DNA from: Escherichia phage PNJ1809-36
Direction: 5' to 3' (one strand)
DNA: 64,000 nucleotides
Sequence record: MT944117.1
In this document: piece after piece, positions 3,480-50,380 of the stretch
How positions within the stretch are numbered: position 1 is the first letter of the stretch
Layout of the letters: each line of letters begins with the position of its first letter
Program-made: the position numbers and the translations under genes
The notes under the pieces: model-generated
Database searches by the model: none
Told to the model about the DNA's origin: nothing
Seen by the model: only the letters and a program-made list of their open reading frames with translations

Positions 3480-3836
3480 ATGAAAAAACTAATCTTAGCC
3501 ACATTGCTGGCTACCGTAAGCTTCACCACTTACGCTCAAAAATTTGTAGCAGTTAAAACGGATATTGGTAAAGATGTTGTGATCACAGGCAACAAATTTT
3601 ACTATACACCTGGGAATGGTGTTCTAGAAGAGTGCCAAGATGTTGAGGCATATACAGGAAAAGAAGATAACACGGAACGTCCTTTTTATTCGATTATAGC
3701 TACTTGCAAAAATGAAATAGTAGCTATTAAACAATACAAAGATGCCCCTGGAGGAGAGTACTTGTTAGTCAAGAATATTAAGAGTGAAAAAACTGCAAAG
3801 TTTACAGTAATTATTTTAAAAGGAGAAACGTTCTAA
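3480..3836 (+). CDS. secreted small protein with N-terminal signal peptide
   Basis: SD AGGAGGG + ATG 3480; MKKLILATLLATVSFTTYAQ signal-like N-terminus. Confidence 0.65.
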   Translation: MKKLILATLLATVSFTTYAQKFVAVKTDIGKDVVITGNKFYYTPGNGVLEECQDVEAYTGKEDNTERPFYSIIATCKNEIVAIKQYKDAPGGEYLLVKNIKSEKTAKFTVIILKGETF

Positions 3837-4975
3837 TGAAATACACTATTTTTGGAGATGTAGCTGTTGTAAATAAGGAATATGGCGTTGAAGCTAATAA
3901 ACTTCCTGCTGGAGTTTGGGTTGTCAACTGCGATCCGCACGGTAACTACTCTTTAGTGCGTGGCGAAAGTTTCTCTCTTCCGAACACTCTTTATGGGGAA
4001 ACTAAAGATCGCGCCGCACATGTTATTAAAACATTTGCTCGTCGTAGTAAAGAAGGTAAAAATACTGGGGTGTTACTGACAGGGACAAAAGGCAGTGGTA
4101 AGACGATGTTAGCTAAACTGATTAGCATGTCTCTAATGTCCACAGAAGGTTTAGGTATTCCAACCATTTTGGTTACACAGCCTTACACAGATGCTGGATT
4201 CTTAGAATTTATGAGTAAAATTACAGATCGTGCTGTTGTTTTATTTGACGAATTTGATAAAGTGTATGCTAAGAAAGAAGATCAGGAAGCACTGTTGACC
4301 TTGTTGGATGGAACAGGAAGTGGGAATAAACTTTACATCCTCACTAAAAATAGTGGTTATATCTCGGAATATTTTGTAAACCGTCCTAGTCGTATCTACT
4401 ACAGTTTCAATTACGATAAACTGTCTAGTGAAACTATGTTAGATTACTTGGATAAGAACTTGGTAAATAAAAAACACGTAGATAACTTCCAACGTTTATG
4501 GGATGTTAGCACAGAGTTGTCTTTCGATGTTATTCAAGGCATTGTAGAAGAATTGAATTTCTATCCAAAAATGACTTTTAAAGAATGTCTTGAAATGATG
4601 GGTATTTCTTTAGGCAATGATGCTAAATGGAATGTGGTTTCTATTGTAGCTAATGGCAAAACCTTGAAGGTGAATTGGATCAATAACTGGCACGACTTTA
4701 CCCCTACTAAGTTTTTGTCGGGTGCTTGTTCCTTGAACATCTATCTACAAAGCTTGAAAGATGATGAAGTGGAAGCAATGGAAACCAATAGTTATGTTAT
4801 CCTAGACGAAGATGGCGACCCACATATTGATCTATGTGCAACTGCTGATGGTCTAACTTGTGATCTGATTGAAGGTGGTAAGATCCTGGTGATGAGCACT
4901 ACACCAGGAAACACTCTGCGAGTGGTGCTGGAGCCTGTAACGCAGCGATCTACCACACTGGGTAGCGTATTCTGA
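3836..4975 (+). CDS. AAA+ family ATPase
   Basis: Walker A GTKGSGKT, Walker B VVLFDEFD, sensor ILTKN; 379 aa. Confidence 0.75.
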   Translation: MKYTIFGDVAVVNKEYGVEANKLPAGVWVVNCDPHGNYSLVRGESFSLPNTLYGETKDRAAHVIKTFARRSKEGKNTGVLLTGTKGSGKTMLAKLISMSLMSTEGLGIPTILVTQPYTDAGFLEFMSKITDRAVVLFDEFDKVYAKKEDQEALLTLLDGTGSGNKLYILTKNSGYISEYFVNRPSRIYYSFNYDKLSSETMLDYLDKNLVNKKHVDNFQRLWDVSTELSFDVIQGIVEELNFYPKMTFKECLEMMGISLGNDAKWNVVSIVANGKTLKVNWINNWHDFTPTKFLSGACSLNIYLQSLKDDEVEAMETNSYVILDEDGDPHIDLCATADGLTCDLIEGGKILVMSTTPGNTLRVVLEPVTQRSTTLGSVF

Positions 4976-5044: not shown

Positions 5045-6052
5045 TTGTTAGATATGCCAGTAAAGAAGAGTATTGAAACATATATGGAAGAATGTAAGCC
5101 GATAGCTGAGGCTAAAGGGATTACCATTCTCGGCACGTATGGAGAAGATAAAGGTGTGCATACGAAGATGATCAATCGTTGTGAGCATGGTCATGAATGG
5201 AATACTACAACGTTTCACAGTTTTAAAGATGGTCGAGGTTGTCCTAAGTGCGCCTACAGGGAACGTTCGAAAAAGAGAAGCAAAGCTATCACTATTCCAG
5301 ACCAGCAACACATACAAGATTTTATGAAGGTAGGTAAATTTAAGGAAGGCACTATTTTCACCAATACAGGAGAACGTAAAGGGTGTGATATAGTATGGAT
5401 GGTTGAATGTCCTGTTTGCTCTCATGATGAATATGTGGAAGCTGGGGTGTGTGATGGTAAATTCTATGCTACCGGAAGTCATCTTAAACGTGGGTGTCTC
5501 CCTTGCCGCTGTTCTACAAGTTACAAATACACAGAGGATCAGACCACCTATAGAACAAGAAAGGAAGTAGAAAGGAGAGGATATATATGGGTAGGATGGA
5601 TCGGTAAACCTTCAACAATGGGTAAGTTTAAATATGGATGTAAGGAGCACGGGGAACAGATAGGGCGTGCAGATGGTTTGCTACATAAGGGGAGTGGGTG
5701 TCCGCAGTGCGGGGGCCAAAACCAACAACAATGTTACATTAATCATATTTATGATGAAGATGGTATTCTTTGTGCACTGAAGTTTGGTATTGCCAATAGT
5801 AGTGATCGCCGTATCAAAGAACAGAATAGCCGCAATGTGTTTACTATGAGACAAGTTCAAGTGTGGCAGTTCCCCACTGTGAAGCAGTGCAAAAATTCAG
5901 AAAAGTATTGCAAAAAGGTGTTAGACACAGAAGCAGTGAGCAAATATGCTATGCCAGACGGCTACACAGAAACAGTGGAGCTATCTTGTCTGGCATCAAT
6001 ACAAAACATTTATAAACTTTATGGTGGAATATTACAGGAGGAAACATGTTAG
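5045..6052 (+). CDS. T5orf172/GIY-YIG-like domain protein with Cys-rich N-terminal repeats (homing-endonuclease-like)
   Basis: three GCPxC-type repeats; C-terminal KFGIANSSDRRIKEQNS resembles T5orf172 core; start may be TTG 5045 or ATG 5054. Confidence 0.55.
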   Translation: MLDMPVKKSIETYMEECKPIAEAKGITILGTYGEDKGVHTKMINRCEHGHEWNTTTFHSFKDGRGCPKCAYRERSKKRSKAITIPDQQHIQDFMKVGKFKEGTIFTNTGERKGCDIVWMVECPVCSHDEYVEAGVCDGKFYATGSHLKRGCLPCRCSTSYKYTEDQTTYRTRKEVERRGYIWVGWIGKPSTMGKFKYGCKEHGEQIGRADGLLHKGSGCPQCGGQNQQQCYINHIYDEDGILCALKFGIANSSDRRIKEQNSRNVFTMRQVQVWQFPTVKQCKNSEKYCKKVLDTEAVSKYAMPDGYTETVELSCLASIQNIYKLYGGILQEETC

Positions 6053-46104: not shown

Positions 46105-46677
46105 TCAAATTATTAACGAAACCGCATGACTAAATCTTGGTTCAGATATAACCTCTGCTACAGTAACATATGTATCGTGCAGCCAAAAAGATTCTACTCT
46201 ACAAACACAAATACCGTTGATAATGAAATCTACACAGGCTTTATTATTTTCGCACACTTGTTGACTATAAACAACCCCTAAAGAGTCATAAAGTGATCTC
46301 ACTGTTGCTACCATTTCATCTGTTTCGTCTTCCTGTGAAACAAAGAAAACGAATACAGACAAGTTATTAGCGAAAGTATTGCTATTCTCTACCTCAACCG
46401 ACTTACAAGGTAAAAAGGAGTAATATTTACCATTAGGTATCAATTTCGCCTCAACCTGGTTAAGTATGCTTTGAGATGGTTTTGTTACATAAAAAAGATT
46501 TTCTGTTGGGTTTTCAACATTACTCCTTACTATGCAACGAGTGGGGTTCGAAGAATCAAAAACATGATCGAAATCGACACACACAGGTAAGTTAACAACT
46601 TTAAACTTTTTGCTAAGAATGCTTACTGCTGTAAAAATCAAACCAGCATTTATTTTGCCAGTGAAAGTTGAACGCAT
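46105..46677 (-). CDS. hypothetical protein (190 aa)
   Basis: ATG 46677 after GAGGAG; listed 46695 start has no SD. Confidence 0.6.
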   Translation of the reverse strand: MRSTFTGKINAGLIFTAVSILSKKFKVVNLPVCVDFDHVFDSSNPTRCIVRSNVENPTENLFYVTKPSQSILNQVEAKLIPNGKYYSFLPCKSVEVENSNTFANNLSVFVFFVSQEDETDEMVATVRSLYDSLGVVYSQQVCENNKACVDFIINGICVCRVESFWLHDTYVTVAEVISEPRFSHAVSLII

Positions 46678-46691
46678 AACTACTCCTCGGA

Positions 46692-46886
46692 TCATTCTAC
46701 CAAAGAGAATTCCGCCTCTTCCAGGTAGATTACAGACCTTGTTGCATGATATTTAACGCTCCAGAAATTACCTTCGCGCCGTAAAAGTATCTCATTCACA
46801 TCAAGATTGCTTAGAAAAACCATATAACTTAAAGCTTGTTGACGCGTTGAGAATTGTTTCTCTAAAAGTTCTTCTCCGCTCTGCAT
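46692..46886 (-). CDS. hypothetical protein (64 aa)
   Basis: SD AAGGAGGG. Confidence 0.6.
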   Translation of the reverse strand: MQSGEELLEKQFSTRQQALSYMVFLSNLDVNEILLRREGNFWSVKYHATRSVIYLEEAEFSLVE

Positions 46887-48329: not shown

Positions 48330-48352
48330 AAGAAATGCCCCCGAAGGGGCAG
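48330..48352 (-). terminator. UUCG-tetraloop hairpin (partial terminator)
   Basis: minus strand GCCCC-TTCG-GGGGC followed by ATTTCTT. Confidence 0.5.
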
Positions 48353-48356
48353 TTTG

Positions 48357-49049
48357 TTAAATAGCGGTTCCTTCGAAATCCGCCACATTTACGAGATTAA
48401 TATTTTCAGATTTAGAAGTCAAGTTGTTTTCTGCAACAGATTTTTCTTCAGTATCCGCCTCGTTACCTGCCACGTTACGAGGTTCTTCTTCACCGTAGGG
48501 ATTACCGAATTTCAAAAGATTGATCAATTCTTCTTTGGAGAAGTTTTCTAAATCATCGTCTGTTAATTCAATAATCTCGTCTTGTTCTTCAATAAATGTT
48601 TCACCACCAGAAAAAGCATCTCGCTTTTTAGCTACTTCCATAGCTTGTTCTGGTGTTGCCCCTGCGTCAAGAGCAGCTAAAGCAAAGTCTGACCCACTTC
48701 CTACTGCATAATATTCTTCATCAATCGGATATGCACGTGTTGGGTTGTTACCTTCGTGCAAGAAAATACGTCCGTCTGGATGAACAACAAGTGCAATAAA
48801 CTCTTCATCTTCTTTATCTGGATCAGAGTGAATCATCAAACCAGGGACAGCATCACGTGCTGCTTCGCACTGTAGATTTTGTTCAAACCATTGAAAGAAA
48901 GAAAGCACGGAGGTCAGACGACCAGCACCACCTACAAGGTAATCTCCAATTTTTCGGACCTTTTTGAAATTAATAGAATCTACACGTCCACCAAAAGTTA
49001 CCTTACCGTCACTCAAAATCTTATTTTTGGTTGCAATAATTGTCGTCAC
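48357..49049 (-). CDS. HslV-like Ntn-hydrolase peptidase with acidic C-terminal extension
   Basis: MTTII N-terminus (Thr after Met), GGRVDS...KKVRKIGDYLVGGAG, AVGSGS; C-terminal 90 aa Glu/Asp-rich; GTG start after GAGGAGG. Confidence 0.7.
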   Translation of the reverse strand: MTTIIATKNKILSDGKVTFGGRVDSINFKKVRKIGDYLVGGAGRLTSVLSFFQWFEQNLQCEAARDAVPGLMIHSDPDKEDEEFIALVVHPDGRIFLHEGNNPTRAYPIDEEYYAVGSGSDFALAALDAGATPEQAMEVAKKRDAFSGGETFIEEQDEIIELTDDDLENFSKEELINLLKFGNPYGEEEPRNVAGNEADTEEKSVAENNLTSKSENINLVNVADFEGTAI

Positions 49050-49549
49050 TATTCTTCCTCCTCTGTTAATGTTTTAAGAACCGCTTTCCCGCCATTCACA
49101 TATTTGCAGATGTATTCTATCGCACGTAGTGTCTCTTTGTCAACAAAAATTTGATCAGACGTTGCGAGCGGGTTATTAAGAAGATCACTGCAATCACGAA
49201 CAAGCAGTGCTTTCTTATTAAACAAATTACTTAAGAACAGTAACTTCGCCTCTTCTTCTGTTATGTGCAGAAGGCTAGGATCGGAGCCAGCTATTCCTAT
49301 TATACAATCAAACAAGCTTTCTTTACTATCAGAAAGTTCTTGAAAATGGTTTAAAAGCCAATCTTCTCCTAGACACCAACATTTAAACATTTCCAGTTTA
49401 TCTCGGAGGGTCATATTCTCTAAAGTAAGAGCAATCTCTTTTTCAATATGGTTTACACAAATTTGACGAAATTCGTTAGGTTTTACGAGTCCCGTTTGAT
49501 AGCACTCATCTATACCGCTTCTTCCGATAGCTATTGTTGCTACACCCAT
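49049..49549 (-). CDS. hypothetical protein (166 aa)
   Basis: ATG 49549 after AAGGAGG. Confidence 0.65.
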   Translation of the reverse strand: MGVATIAIGRSGIDECYQTGLVKPNEFRQICVNHIEKEIALTLENMTLRDKLEMFKCWCLGEDWLLNHFQELSDSKESLFDCIIGIAGSDPSLLHITEEEAKLLFLSNLFNKKALLVRDCSDLLNNPLATSDQIFVDKETLRAIEYICKYVNGGKAVLKTLTEEEE

Positions 49550-49584
49550 CAATCCTCCTTATAAATGGCTTCCCTGCCATGTCA

Positions 49585-50343: not shown

Positions 50344-50360
50344 AGTAGCACTCCTTTTAG

Positions 50361-50378
50361 AAGGGGCCGAAGCCCCTT
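50361..50378 (-). other. intercistronic UUCG-tetraloop hairpin without T-run
   Basis: minus strand GGGGC-TTCG-GCCCC between lysozyme stop and phoH SD. Confidence 0.5.
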
Positions 50379-50380
50379 TA

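What the first reader, a model, noticed from the sequence alone, without database searches (positions are those of the whole stretch)
48357..49049. HslV-like peptidase with a 90-aa acidic tail
N-terminal Thr (after Met), GG..D and GSG blocks parallel bacterial HslV, but the phage protein carries a long Glu/Asp-rich extension not present in HslV. It may hijack host HslU, act in virion maturation, or degrade host defence proteins.
Basis: partly seen in the sequence, partly recalled or inferred. Interest (0 to 1): 0.5.

Follow-up and report, generated by a model that had tools for sequence, protein, structure and literature searches.

The report
Phage proteasome-like peptidase with acidic tail
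This gene of a phAPEC8-like E. coli phage encodes a small proteasome-family threonine peptidase that public phage genomes already label "peptidase HslV family"; it belongs to the phage-specific PPH branch rather than true HslV, it carries a partly conserved acidic C-terminal extension, and nobody has tested what it does.

Summary
The ORF is real: 48357..49049 on the minus strand, 230 aa, GTG start with a strong Shine-Dalgarno. The window is a Phapecoctavirus (phAPEC8-like). More than 60 public phage genomes hold this protein at 99% identity or more, usually annotated "peptidase HslV family" (PHROG 1040, E 1.6e-63).

It is a proteasome-type Ntn hydrolase. Thr follows the initiator Met directly. 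Asp17, Lys33, Gly45 and the Gly-Ser-Gly block are conserved across the family. The AlphaFold model matches HslV, BPH and 20S beta subunits.

It is not an HslV orthologue:
- It scores 31-32 bits against NCBI's HslV models, whose cut-offs are 137 and 158.
- It lacks apical helix H2.
- HslV's basic pore cluster is replaced by an acidic loop.
- It scores much higher against ~140-aa phage proteasome homologues (138.8 bits) than E. coli HslV does (48.4 bits). These fit the PPH group of Fuchs et al. 2021.

The extension is about 75 aa, not 90. It has an acidic linker, a conserved amphipathic helix (FSKEELINLL) and a fast-evolving disordered acidic end.

A virion-maturation role is unlikely: the phage has a separate S78-type prohead protease. 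Phage VEcB carries a natural deletion that removes the catalytic N-terminus. Docking to host HslU is not supported. Function is untested, so interest is modest.

The parts
48357..49049 (-). Full CDS including the stop codon: a 230-aa proteasome-like (PPH-type, 'peptidase HslV family') Ntn hydrolase with a GTG start.
   Evidence: 99.6% identical to proteins of phAPEC8-like phages
48585..49049 (-). Catalytic core, aa 1-155. Holds Thr2 (mature Thr1), D14, K30, G40/G43 and G117-S118-G119. The fold is an alpha-beta-beta-alpha sandwich with helix H1 (45-67), an acidic loop (68-83) in place of helix H2, H3 (120-128), H4 (133-143) and a last strand (151-155).
   Evidence: AF2 block-mean pLDDT 80-99 over aa 1-150 and 88 for 151-160; Foldseek hits to HslV, BPH and 20S beta; hhalign against E. 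coli HslV; invariant columns
48486..48584 (-). Proximal extension, aa 156-188: acidic linker (EEQDEIIELTDDD) followed by two short helices (164-169 and 172-181) that carry the family-conserved motif FSKEELINLL.
   Evidence: Block-mean pLDDT 82-88 over aa 161-180; a related motif is found in at least 84 of 138 tailed relatives, including distant ones; 42% mean identity against 14% for the distal tail
48360..48485 (-). Distal extension, aa 189-230: disordered and acidic. Its sequence and length are not conserved.
   Evidence: pLDDT below 50; 14% mean identity and only 55% alignable; in other lineages it is replaced by different domains
49057..49063 (-). Shine-Dalgarno GAGGAGG, 7 nt upstream of the GTG start. 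The stop codon (TAG) of the upstream ORF overlaps the GTG by 1 nt, which suggests translational coupling.
49114..49143 (-). Sigma-70-like promoter match (TTGACA, 18-nt spacer, TAGAAT; 11 of 12) inside the 3' end of the upstream gene. This is a consensus match only.
48336..48351 (-). Terminator-like hairpin (TGCCCC-TTCG-GGGGCA followed by TTTCTT) that starts 5 nt after the stop codon. It probably marks the end, or an attenuation point, of the transcription unit.
   Evidence: fold z-score -3.08
49049..49552 (-). Upstream gene (homologue of phAPEC8 gp174 and phi92 gp059; PHROG 14834, function unknown). It stays adjacent to the peptidase gene in relatives whose peptidase is only 43-49% identical, so it is a candidate partner or adaptor.
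   Evidence: AF2 pLDDT 92.3, helical, no informative PDB match; present in only 133 phage records
49585..50394 (-). PhoH-like P-loop ATPase, two genes upstream. The order lysozyme, PhoH, gp174-like, peptidase is conserved.

Best explanation
The gene encodes a phage-specific proteasome homologue: an N-terminal-threonine (Ntn) peptidase of the compact PPH type, not an orthologue of bacterial HslV.

Shown by tool results:
- All proteasome active-site residues are present and conserved across the family.
- There is no propeptide.
- The predicted fold matches HslV, BPH and 20S beta subunits.
- Helix H2 is absent.
- The loop that corresponds to HslV's pore entrance is acidic.
- The extension has three parts: an acidic linker, a conserved amphipathic helix and a variable disordered acidic end.
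- The gene lies in an early/middle-type cluster (ribonucleotide reductase, glutaredoxin, lysozyme, PhoH), directly after a co-conserved 167-aa gene.

Inferred, not shown:
- Host methionine aminopeptidase removes the initiator Met and exposes Thr1.
- Subunits assemble into a ring-shaped, self-compartmentalising oligomer, as in HslV and BPH.
- The oligomer cleaves unfolded or disordered polypeptides in the infected cell without docking to host HslU.
- The C-terminal helices project from the barrel as docking or regulatory elements, possibly for the product of the upstream gene or for substrates.
- The acidic pore loop and tails bias the enzyme towards basic substrates.

The gene is accessory rather than essential.
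For: Identity and fold:
- Pfam PF00227 above its cut-off.
- PHROG 1040, E 1.6e-63.
- HslV chains are the best PDB sequence hits.
- The AF2 core is confident.
- Foldseek matches HslV, BPH and 20S beta at E ~1e-10.

Active site:
- T2, D14, K30 and G43 are nearly invariant, and GSG117-119 is invariant, in 72 homologues.
- hhalign maps these residues onto HslV Thr1, Asp17, Lys33, Gly45/48 and Ser124.
- All complete aligned members start MTT, as E. coli HslV does; its crystallised chain starts at Thr.

PPH type rather than HslV:
- The core scores 138.8 bits against a profile of 60 relatives of 160 aa or less, whereas E. coli HslV scores 48.4 bits. All 60 of these relatives outrank E. coli HslV in pairwise searches with the core.
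- NCBIfam HslV equivalogs give 32.2 and 31.4 bits against cut-offs of 137 and 157.75.
- Helix H2 is absent. PMC8665760 gives this as the structural hallmark of PPH and RPC.
- PPH is described there as occurring in tailed phages.

Extension.

Context:
- Neighbourhood and synteny.
- Coupling to the upstream gene.
- A separate S78_2 prohead protease exists.

Dispensability: the VEcB fusion deletes Thr1.

No HslU-like partner is annotated in the phAPEC8 genome.
Against: - There is no biochemical evidence. The closest characterised stand-alone relative, BPH, was inert on standard peptide substrates and casein in vitro although its Thr1 reacts with epoxomicin (PMC5777263). Proteolysis is therefore not guaranteed.
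- The oligomeric state could not be predicted with the tools available, which fold single chains only.
- The alignment of the H2/pore-loop region with HslV is of low confidence.
- Some HslU-pocket positions remain hydrophobic: HslV F54 aligns with phage L49, and F57 with F52. HslU docking is therefore disfavoured, not excluded.
- Dispensability rests on one genome (VEcB). Conservation in 233 phage records shows the gene is selected in nature.
- The role proposed for the tail is inference only.
Confidence: 0.6

Rival explanations
1. It is a functional HslV substitute. It forms double hexameric rings that dock host HslU (ClpY), redirecting the host unfoldase to phage-chosen substrates.
For: - HslV chains are the top sequence and structure hits in the PDB.
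- The N-terminus MTTI and the KKVR and GSG blocks are HslV-like.
- Public records name it HslV.
- The E. coli host encodes HslU (established knowledge).
- Two HslU-pocket positions stay hydrophobic: HslV F54 aligns with L49, and F57 with F52.
Against: - It scores 32.2 and 31.4 bits against cut-offs of 137 and 157.75 for the HslV equivalog models.
- It is closer to ~140-aa phage homologues than to HslV.
- Helix H2, which contributes HslU-pocket residues A79/K80, is replaced by a loop (PMC6429459).
- R86/R89/K90, needed for HslV activity, align with a gap, E82 and E83 (PMC5777263).
- HslV Q114 aligns with a proline, P108.
- BPH, an HslV descendant with a non-conserved HslU interface, does not bind HslU.
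Confidence: 0.12
2. It is a targeted counter-defence or host-takeover protease. The co-conserved upstream protein (gp174-like) and/or the tail helix act as an adaptor that delivers specific host proteins, such as defence proteins or basic nucleoid proteins, for destruction.
For: - The gp174-like gene stays adjacent at 33-35% identity while the peptidase is only 43-49% identical.
- The two genes appear translationally coupled.
- The tail helix is conserved.
- The gene sits among early/middle accessory genes.
- It is dispensable in the lab isolate VEcB, as many anti-defence genes are.
Against: - There is no direct evidence of any substrate.
- gp174 has no recognisable fold or family.
- gp174 is confined to one phage lineage of 133 records, whereas tailed peptidases occur without it in Vibrio and Aeromonas phages.
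- The adjacency could be inherited synteny.
Confidence: 0.2
3. It is the prohead (virion maturation) protease or another virion-associated protease.
For: Phages commonly encode a maturation protease, and none is annotated as such in phAPEC8.
Against: - phAPEC8 gp117, directly after portal, matches Pfam Peptidase_S78_2 (XkdF) at 44.9 bits against a cut-off of 24, and also matches PHROG head-maturation-protease families.
- The HslV-like gene is about 28 kb away on the opposite strand, among metabolic genes.
- VEcB is a viable phage without the catalytic N-terminus.
Confidence: 0.03
4. It is a proteasome-fold enzyme with non-proteolytic chemistry, such as a ligase/transpeptidase like connectase or an amidohydrolase. 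Alternatively it is a catalytically silent scaffold whose tail is the functional part.
For: - Connectase shows that proteasome homologues can be ligases (PMC8665760).
- BPH is inert on standard substrates.
- The Ntn clan is functionally versatile.
Against: - The full proteasome catalytic set is retained: Thr1, Asp17, Lys33, the oxyanion Gly and the GSG Ser.
- The closest characterised relatives, HslV and the 20S proteasome, are proteases.
- Conservation of the catalytic residues argues against a silent scaffold.
Confidence: 0.05

Closest known systems
[quoted passage not shown]
   Same: - Compact proteasome-like core without helix H2.
- Thr1/Asp17/Lys33 triad and no propeptide.
- Encoded by tailed phages of Proteobacteria.
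- Beyond the tailed subfamily, the nearest relatives in a 1.84-billion-protein library are 137-160-aa proteins of this type.
- Function unknown, and no AAA+ partner has been identified.
   Different: PPH is described as about 140 residues. This protein is 230 aa because of a ~75-aa extension with a conserved helix motif. Its H1-to-strand loop is about 13 residues longer and strongly acidic.
[quoted passage not shown]
   Same: PPH-like core lacking H2, plus a C-terminal extension or domain that matches no known structure.
   Different: In the paper's Table 1, RPC occurs only in Proteobacteria (79 sequences) and not in phages, and it is described as more divergent than PPH. Here the gene is in more than 200 phage genomes and scores strongly against PPH-like proteins. 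Not testable directly.
Bacterial HslV (ClpQ), protease subunit of HslUV
   Same: - Ntn fold, MTT N-terminus, Asp17, Lys33, Gly45 and Ser124.
- 22-26% identity.
- Best PDB sequence hits.
   Different: - Fails the NCBIfam HslV cut-offs by more than 100 bits.
- No helix H2.
- Acidic instead of basic pore cluster.
- HslU-pocket residues not conserved.
- No adjacent hslU.
- Extra C-terminal extension.
BPH (Betaproteobacteria proteasome homologue; PDB 5ovs and 5ovt)
   Same: - An HslV-derived stand-alone proteasome homologue.
- No partner unfoldase found, and the HslU interface is not conserved.
- Acidic inner cavity and pore region (PMC5777263).
- Ranks 2-3 in the Foldseek search.
   Different: BPH is bacterial, retains H2 and has a long pore loop. 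It forms heptameric double rings and has no acidic C-terminal extension.
PHROG 1040 'peptidase HslV family' (for example phAPEC8 gp175 and phi92 gp058)
   Same: Same protein family and essentially the same protein. It is 99.6% identical to proteins of many phAPEC8-like phages (the phAPEC8 region is 99.4% identical at nucleotide level). The full-length match, including most of the tail, has E 1.6e-63.
   Different: None. This is the annotation the gene already carries. The name suggests HslV orthology, which the tests here do not support.

Membership tests
Proteasome-like Ntn hydrolases (Pfam PF00227) | Nucleophilic Thr at the mature N-terminus. Here it directly follows the initiator Met, with no propeptide. 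| tested here: met
   The sequence begins MTTII. T2 is at least 90% conserved in 72 homologues. Met removal before Thr is inferred from the established specificity of methionine aminopeptidase; the E. coli HslV crystal chains start at Thr.
Proteasome-like Ntn hydrolases (Pfam PF00227) | Active-site set Asp17, Lys33, oxyanion Gly45/47 and Ser124/129 in the GSG block. | tested here: met
   D14, K30, G40/G43 and S118 align with these residues. They are invariant or nearly invariant in the family.
Proteasome-like Ntn hydrolases (Pfam PF00227) | Alpha-beta-beta-alpha sandwich fold. | tested here: met
   The AF2 core has block-mean pLDDT 80-99. Foldseek matches HslV, BPH and 20S beta at E ~1e-10, probability 1.0, target-normalised TM-score 0.65-0.69.
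Proteasome-like Ntn hydrolases (Pfam PF00227) | Score above the Pfam gathering threshold. | tested here: met
   25.6 bits against 22.4.
Proteasome-like Ntn hydrolases (Pfam PF00227) | Thr1-dependent peptide hydrolysis and a ring-shaped oligomer. | not testable with these tools
   Needs enzyme assays and SEC or cryo-EM. Only single-chain structure prediction was available.
HslV (ClpQ) proper | Passes the curated HslV equivalog models. | tested here: not met
   NF003964 gives 32.2 bits against a cut-off of 137. TIGR03692 gives 31.4 bits against 157.75.
HslV (ClpQ) proper | Apical helix H2 and the HslU C-terminus docking pocket (F54, F57, A79/K80, Q114). | tested here: not met
   There is no helix between residues 68 and 83. 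The pocket residues align with L49, F52, D76/P77 and P108. The residue list comes from PMC6429459.
HslV (ClpQ) proper | Basic cluster Arg86/Arg89/Lys90 at the pore entrance. | tested here: not met
   It aligns with a gap, E82 and E83 within the acidic loop SDPDKEDEEF. The cluster is described in PMC5777263. Alignment confidence is low in this region.
HslV (ClpQ) proper | Partner hslU gene, normally in the same operon. | tested here: not met
   No HslU-like gene is annotated anywhere in phAPEC8. The only AAA protein (window 3836-4975) resembles classical-clade AAA proteins weakly and occurs mostly in phages that lack this peptidase.
PPH (Fuchs et al. 2021) | Closest sequence relatives are compact (~140 aa) proteasome homologues rather than HslV. 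| tested here: met
   The profile search returns 137-160-aa proteins right after the tailed subfamily. The core scores 138.8 bits against their profile, compared with 48.4 for E. coli HslV.
PPH (Fuchs et al. 2021) | Lacks the second helix (H2). | tested here: met
   In the AF2 secondary structure, H1 (45-67) is followed by a loop (68-83) and then a strand. The feature is stated in PMC8665760.
PPH (Fuchs et al. 2021) | Encoded by tailed phages, or prophages, of Proteobacteria. | tested here: met
   233 phage records carry it: Escherichia, Vibrio, Caulobacter, Aeromonas, Klebsiella, Rhizobium and others.
PPH (Fuchs et al. 2021) | About 140 residues with no extra domain. | tested here: not met
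   The protein is 230 aa with a 75-aa extension. It forms a tailed subfamily of 65 clusters at E below 1e-30.
PPH (Fuchs et al. 2021) | Clusters with the authors' reference sequence (WP_042125023.1). | not testable with these tools
   The reference sequence could not be retrieved, and the held supplement contains no sequences.
RPC (Fuchs et al. 2021) | PPH-related core plus a C-terminal extension, found only in Proteobacteria and not in phages. | tested here: inconclusive
   The extension is present, but the gene is phage-borne. The reference WP_140207863 was not available.
Prohead maturation proteases | Encoded in the head module next to the portal, scaffold and capsid genes, and required for virion production. 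| tested here: not met
   The head module has its own S78_2 protease. This gene is about 28 kb away. VEcB is viable without the catalytic N-terminus.

The most novel reading that the evidence does not exclude
The tailed PPH-type peptidase and the co-conserved upstream protein (gp174-like) form a phage-specific, HslU-independent degradation machine. In this reading, 12-14 acidic C-terminal arms radiate from the barrel. Their conserved amphipathic helix (FSKEELINLL) either docks the adaptor or inserts in trans into the inter-subunit pocket as a built-in activator, mimicking the HslU C-terminal peptide. The acidic pore loop and tails would select basic host proteins, such as nucleoid or defence proteins, for destruction early in infection. 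In sister lineages the same helix would tether HeH-like or Cys-rich C-terminal domains, giving a modular substrate-recruitment platform.
Probability: 0.15. Interest if true: 0.6.

Novelty: already known. Interest (0 to 1): 0.3.

Why it matters
No function has been demonstrated for any virus-encoded proteasome homologue. The 2021 survey that defined PPH found no genomic context or partner that suggested one.

This locus adds three concrete handles:
- A conserved gene pair: the gp174-like gene followed by the peptidase.
- A conserved tail helix.
- A natural knockout phage, VEcB.

All of these are in coliphages that are easy to grow and whose host has hslU and hslV mutants available. If the enzyme proves to be a stand-alone or adaptor-guided protease that acts on host proteins, it would be a new mode of phage takeover and a simple model for ATPase-independent proteasome function.

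As it stands, the finding confirms an existing annotation. It also corrects the implied orthology: 'HslV family' should be read as 'PPH-type proteasome homologue'.

Tried and rejected

2. **Test of whether gp174 is a diverged proteasome paralogue.** In Aeromonas phage 4L372D the upstream gene is such a paralogue. BLASTP between that paralogue and gp174 found nothing, and the gp174 model is almost entirely helical. Rejected.

3. **Search for a phage unfoldase partner.** The only AAA protein (window 3836-4975) passes PF00004 at 29.9 bits. Its relatives are mainly in Enterococcus, Bacillus, Staphylococcus and Lactococcus phages that lack the peptidase. None was listed among Vibrio or Caulobacter phages that have the peptidase. 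There is no co-occurrence signal.

4. **PhoH as a partner.** PhoH is adjacent in Stephanstirmvirinae, in one Vibrio phage and in two metagenomic relatives. These genomes share wider synteny, so the cases are not independent.

5. **Pfam scan of long-tailed relatives for known tail domains.** Only sub-threshold Rho_N/HeH hints appeared (E 0.17-0.39).

6. **Literature search for experiments on phage HslV or PPH.** Only genome annotations and the 2021 bioinformatic survey were found.

7. **Supplement of PMC8665760.** It holds no reference sequences.

8. **Acidity of the tail as a statistical oddity.** It is in the top 2.35% of 70-aa windows, and 12 of 78 ORFs contain an equally acidic window, so it is not exceptional.

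9. **Multimer modelling and inspection of tail-core contacts.** Neither was possible: only single-chain jobs run, and model coordinates are not exposed.
Full report
**Observation**

It starts with GTG. A GAGGAGG Shine-Dalgarno lies 7 nt upstream. The G of the start codon is the last base of the TAG stop of the upstream ORF, which suggests translational coupling.

A sigma-70-like match (TTGACA, 18 nt, TAGAAT) lies at 49143..49114. A GC-rich hairpin followed by a T-tract begins 5 nt after the stop codon, at 48351..48336 (fold z-score -3.08). The gene therefore seems to close a transcription unit.

The window is a Phapecoctavirus. A 10-kb stretch around the gene is 99.4-99.9% identical to phAPEC8 and its relatives. 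The protein is at least 99% identical in 63 phage records. In phAPEC8 it is gp175 and in phi92 it is gp058.

**What it is**

Sequence evidence:
- Pfam Proteasome PF00227: 25.6 bits against a cut-off of 22.4.
- PHROG 1040 'peptidase HslV family': E 1.6e-63 over residues 1-229.
- PDB: HslV chains are the best hits, led by T. maritima 1m4y at E 4.9e-9.

An AlphaFold2 model built on 72 homologues has a confident core (block-mean pLDDT 80-99 over residues 1-150). Foldseek matches it to HslV, BPH and archaeal and eukaryotic 20S beta subunits at E ~1e-10 and probability 1.0. BFVD contains 46 viral proteins with the same fold at E of 0.001 or better.

Profile alignment to E. coli HslV maps the catalytic residues as follows (the HslV sequence was checked against PDB 5ji3):

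| HslV residue | Phage residue |
|---|---|
| Thr1 | T2 |
| Asp17 | D14 |
| Lys33 | K30 |
| Gly45 / Gly48 | G40 / G43 |
| Ser124 | S118 |

These residues are invariant or nearly invariant in the family. All complete aligned members begin MTT, so there is no propeptide. Methionine aminopeptidase should expose Thr1, as it does in HslV (inference from established knowledge).

**Not an HslV orthologue**

- NCBI's two HslV equivalog models give 32.2 and 31.4 bits against cut-offs of 137 and 157.75.
- The model has helix H1 (45-67) followed by a loop (68-83). The second apical helix H2 is missing.
- HslV's pore-entrance basic cluster Arg86/Arg89/Lys90 is required for activity (PMC5777263). It aligns with a gap and two glutamates inside the acidic loop SDPDKEDEEF.
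- Residues lining the HslU C-terminus pocket are F54, F57, A79/K80 and Q114 (PMC6429459). They align with L49, F52, D76/P77 and P108.
- A profile search of 1.84 billion representatives found 65 clusters at E below 1e-30, all tailed and 180-350 aa long. A large population of 137-160-aa proteins follows.
- The core scores 138.8 bits against a profile of 60 of those short proteins, whereas E. coli HslV scores 48.4 bits. In pairwise searches with the core as query, all 60 outrank E. coli HslV.

[quoted passage not shown] I could not obtain the reference sequences to decide between the two.

**The tail**

The extension is about 75 aa (156-230), not 90, and has three parts.

| Part | Residues | Features | Mean identity to homologues |
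|---|---|---|---|
| Acidic linker | 156-163 | EEQDEIIE | 42% (156-188 together) |
| Two short helices | 164-169, 172-181 | Block-mean pLDDT 82-88 over 161-180; carry FSKEELINLL | 42% (156-188 together) |
| Disordered end | 189-230 | pLDDT below 50; acidic | 14% |

For comparison, the core averages 68% identity. The helix motif has the pattern [FMLY]-[ST]-[KR]-[EA]-[EQ]-[LI]-[LIV]-x-x-[LIM]-[LF]. A deliberately strict form of it recurs in at least 84 of 138 tailed relatives. These include proteins only 30-45% identical, which read MSKEELLELLF, MTKEEIIEKFF or LSKEELIEMMF.

Most tailed relatives have acidic tails, typically 18-36% D+E with a net negative charge. A few representatives with short tails have basic ones. 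In other lineages the region after the helix carries different modules:
- Cys-rich segments plus an extra domain, up to 379 aa in total.
- A C-terminal HeH/Rho_N-like motif, with Pfam Rho_N only at E 0.17-0.39.

So the helix looks like a conserved connector or docking element, and the distal tail like a compositionally constrained variable appendage. Within this phage the acidity itself is not exceptional.

**Context**

The gene sits in a leftward cluster of early/middle-type genes: NrdAB, thymidylate synthase, glutaredoxin, dTDP-rhamnose synthesis genes, T4-type lysozyme, PhoH, a gp174-like gene, the peptidase, a small ORF, a DNA methyltransferase and a Ser/Thr phosphatase.

The order lysozyme, PhoH, ~150-170-aa ORF, tailed peptidase is kept in phi92. 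It is also kept in two metagenomic phage contigs whose peptidases are only 43-49% identical. In those contigs the intervening ORF is a true gp174 homologue at 33-35% identity.

gp174 folds confidently (pLDDT 92.3) into a helical protein with no informative structural or family match. It is limited to 133 phage records. Elsewhere the upstream neighbour differs:
- A Vibrio phage has PhoH and a 58-aa ORF upstream.
- Aeromonas phage 4L372D has a second, untailed proteasome-like paralogue immediately upstream.
- Caulobacter phages have an unrelated neighbour and an untailed peptidase.

*Virion maturation.* In phAPEC8 the ORF directly after portal (gp117) is labelled 'DNA methyltransferase'. It matches Pfam Peptidase_S78_2 (XkdF) at 44.9 bits against a cut-off of 24, and PHROG head-maturation-protease families. 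The head module therefore has its own protease, about 28 kb away on the other strand.

*Essentiality.* Phage VEcB is a viable sewage isolate. It carries an in-frame fusion of PhoH residues 1-112 to peptidase residues ~63-217. This deletes the gp059-like gene and the catalytic N-terminus. The module is therefore dispensable, at least in the laboratory.

*Hijacking HslU.* This is disfavoured by the interface analysis above. BPH, an HslV descendant with a non-conserved interface, does not bind HslU. The idea is not excluded.

*Phage-encoded unfoldase.* No HslU-like gene is annotated in phAPEC8. The single AAA protein (window 3836-4975) does not co-occur with the peptidase across phages.

*Degrading defence proteins.* This remains open.

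**Most likely mechanism**

Shown: the protein is a catalytically competent-looking proteasome-family Ntn hydrolase of the phage PPH type. It sits among early/middle-type metabolic genes and has a conserved C-terminal helix and an acidic tail.

Inferred: it assembles into a ring-shaped, self-compartmentalised peptidase. It degrades unfolded or disordered, probably basic, polypeptides without HslU. The tail helix serves as a docking or regulatory element, possibly for gp174.

I put about 0.9 on the identity and about 0.5 on HslU-independent proteolysis, and give 0.6 overall.

**Novelty**

The protein is already in public databases under this annotation, and the class of phage proteasome homologues has been described. 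What this analysis adds is:
- A correction of the implied HslV orthology.
- The anatomy of the tail.
- The conserved gene pair with gp174.
- The separate prohead protease.
- A natural knockout.

I found no experimental work on any phage member. The biology is still open, but the finding itself is ordinary.

Noticed in passing
L006 2501-3304 (Escherichia phage VEcB, NC_052663.1 21495-22298): A single 267-aa ORF fuses PhoH residues 1-112 in frame to the HslV-like protein from about residue 63. The deletion removes the PhoH C-terminus, the gp059/gp174-like gene and the catalytic Thr1. It is a natural knockout of the whole module in a viable phage. RefSeq still labels the ORF 'peptidase HslV family'.
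   Followed up: yes
L005 3432-3983 and 4001-4885 (Aeromonas phage 4L372D): Two proteasome-like paralogues lie in tandem. One is untailed (183 aa) and divergent, with GCG instead of GSG. It is followed by a tailed one (294 aa). This hints at a hetero-oligomeric, alpha/beta-like assembly in that lineage.
   Followed up: partly
Proteins P0061-P0068, P0092, P0116; L003 4001-4867; L005 4001-4885: After the conserved helix motif, relatives carry different C-terminal modules. Some have Cys-rich (CxxC-like) segments plus a W-rich domain, up to 379 aa in total. Others have a terminal HeH/Rho_N-like motif, with Pfam Rho_N only at E 0.17-0.39. The tail behaves as a modular attachment point.
   Followed up: partly
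window 48357-48836 (protein P0023, e.g. phage vB_EcoM-Ro121c4YLVW): Some GenBank records call this gene from the internal Met72 (159 aa). They miss the GTG start and so drop the catalytic N-terminus from the annotated protein.
   Followed up: yes
L007 23688-24167 (phAPEC8 gp117, just after portal; outside the window): This ORF is annotated 'DNA methyltransferase' through PHROG 1530. It matches Pfam Peptidase_S78_2 (XkdF) at 44.9 bits and PHROG head-maturation-protease families. It is most likely the prohead protease, so the annotation looks wrong.
   Followed up: yes
window 3836-4975 (+) and 5045-6052 (+): A 379-aa classical AAA ATPase (PF00004, 29.9 bits; weak PDB similarity to Rix7, VAT and p97) lies next to a CapR-domain, treble-clef protein annotated as an endonuclease. 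The AAA family is widespread in large Gram-positive phages. It does not track the peptidase.
   Followed up: partly
[not shown]
   Followed up: partly
Public records MG065650.1 (Campylobacter phage B15) and MG065639.1 (Campylobacter phage A150): Records labelled as Campylobacter jejuni phages match E. coli phages of this subfamily. B15 is ~98.9% identical at nucleotide level to this Phapecoctavirus region. A150 carries a gp174 homologue only 65% identical, at the level of phi92-like phages. The host labels look doubtful.
   Followed up: no
window 46105-46695 (-): The 196-aa ORF corresponding to phAPEC8 gp181 is annotated 'histidyl tRNA synthetase'. It is far too short for that enzyme, so the label is probably a PHROG name artefact.
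   Followed up: no
window 50360-50379 (+): A strong GC-rich hairpin (GAAGGGGC-CGAA-GCCCCTTT) lies at the junction between the lysozyme and PhoH genes. It was reported on the strand opposite to the genes, and its role is unknown.
   Followed up: no
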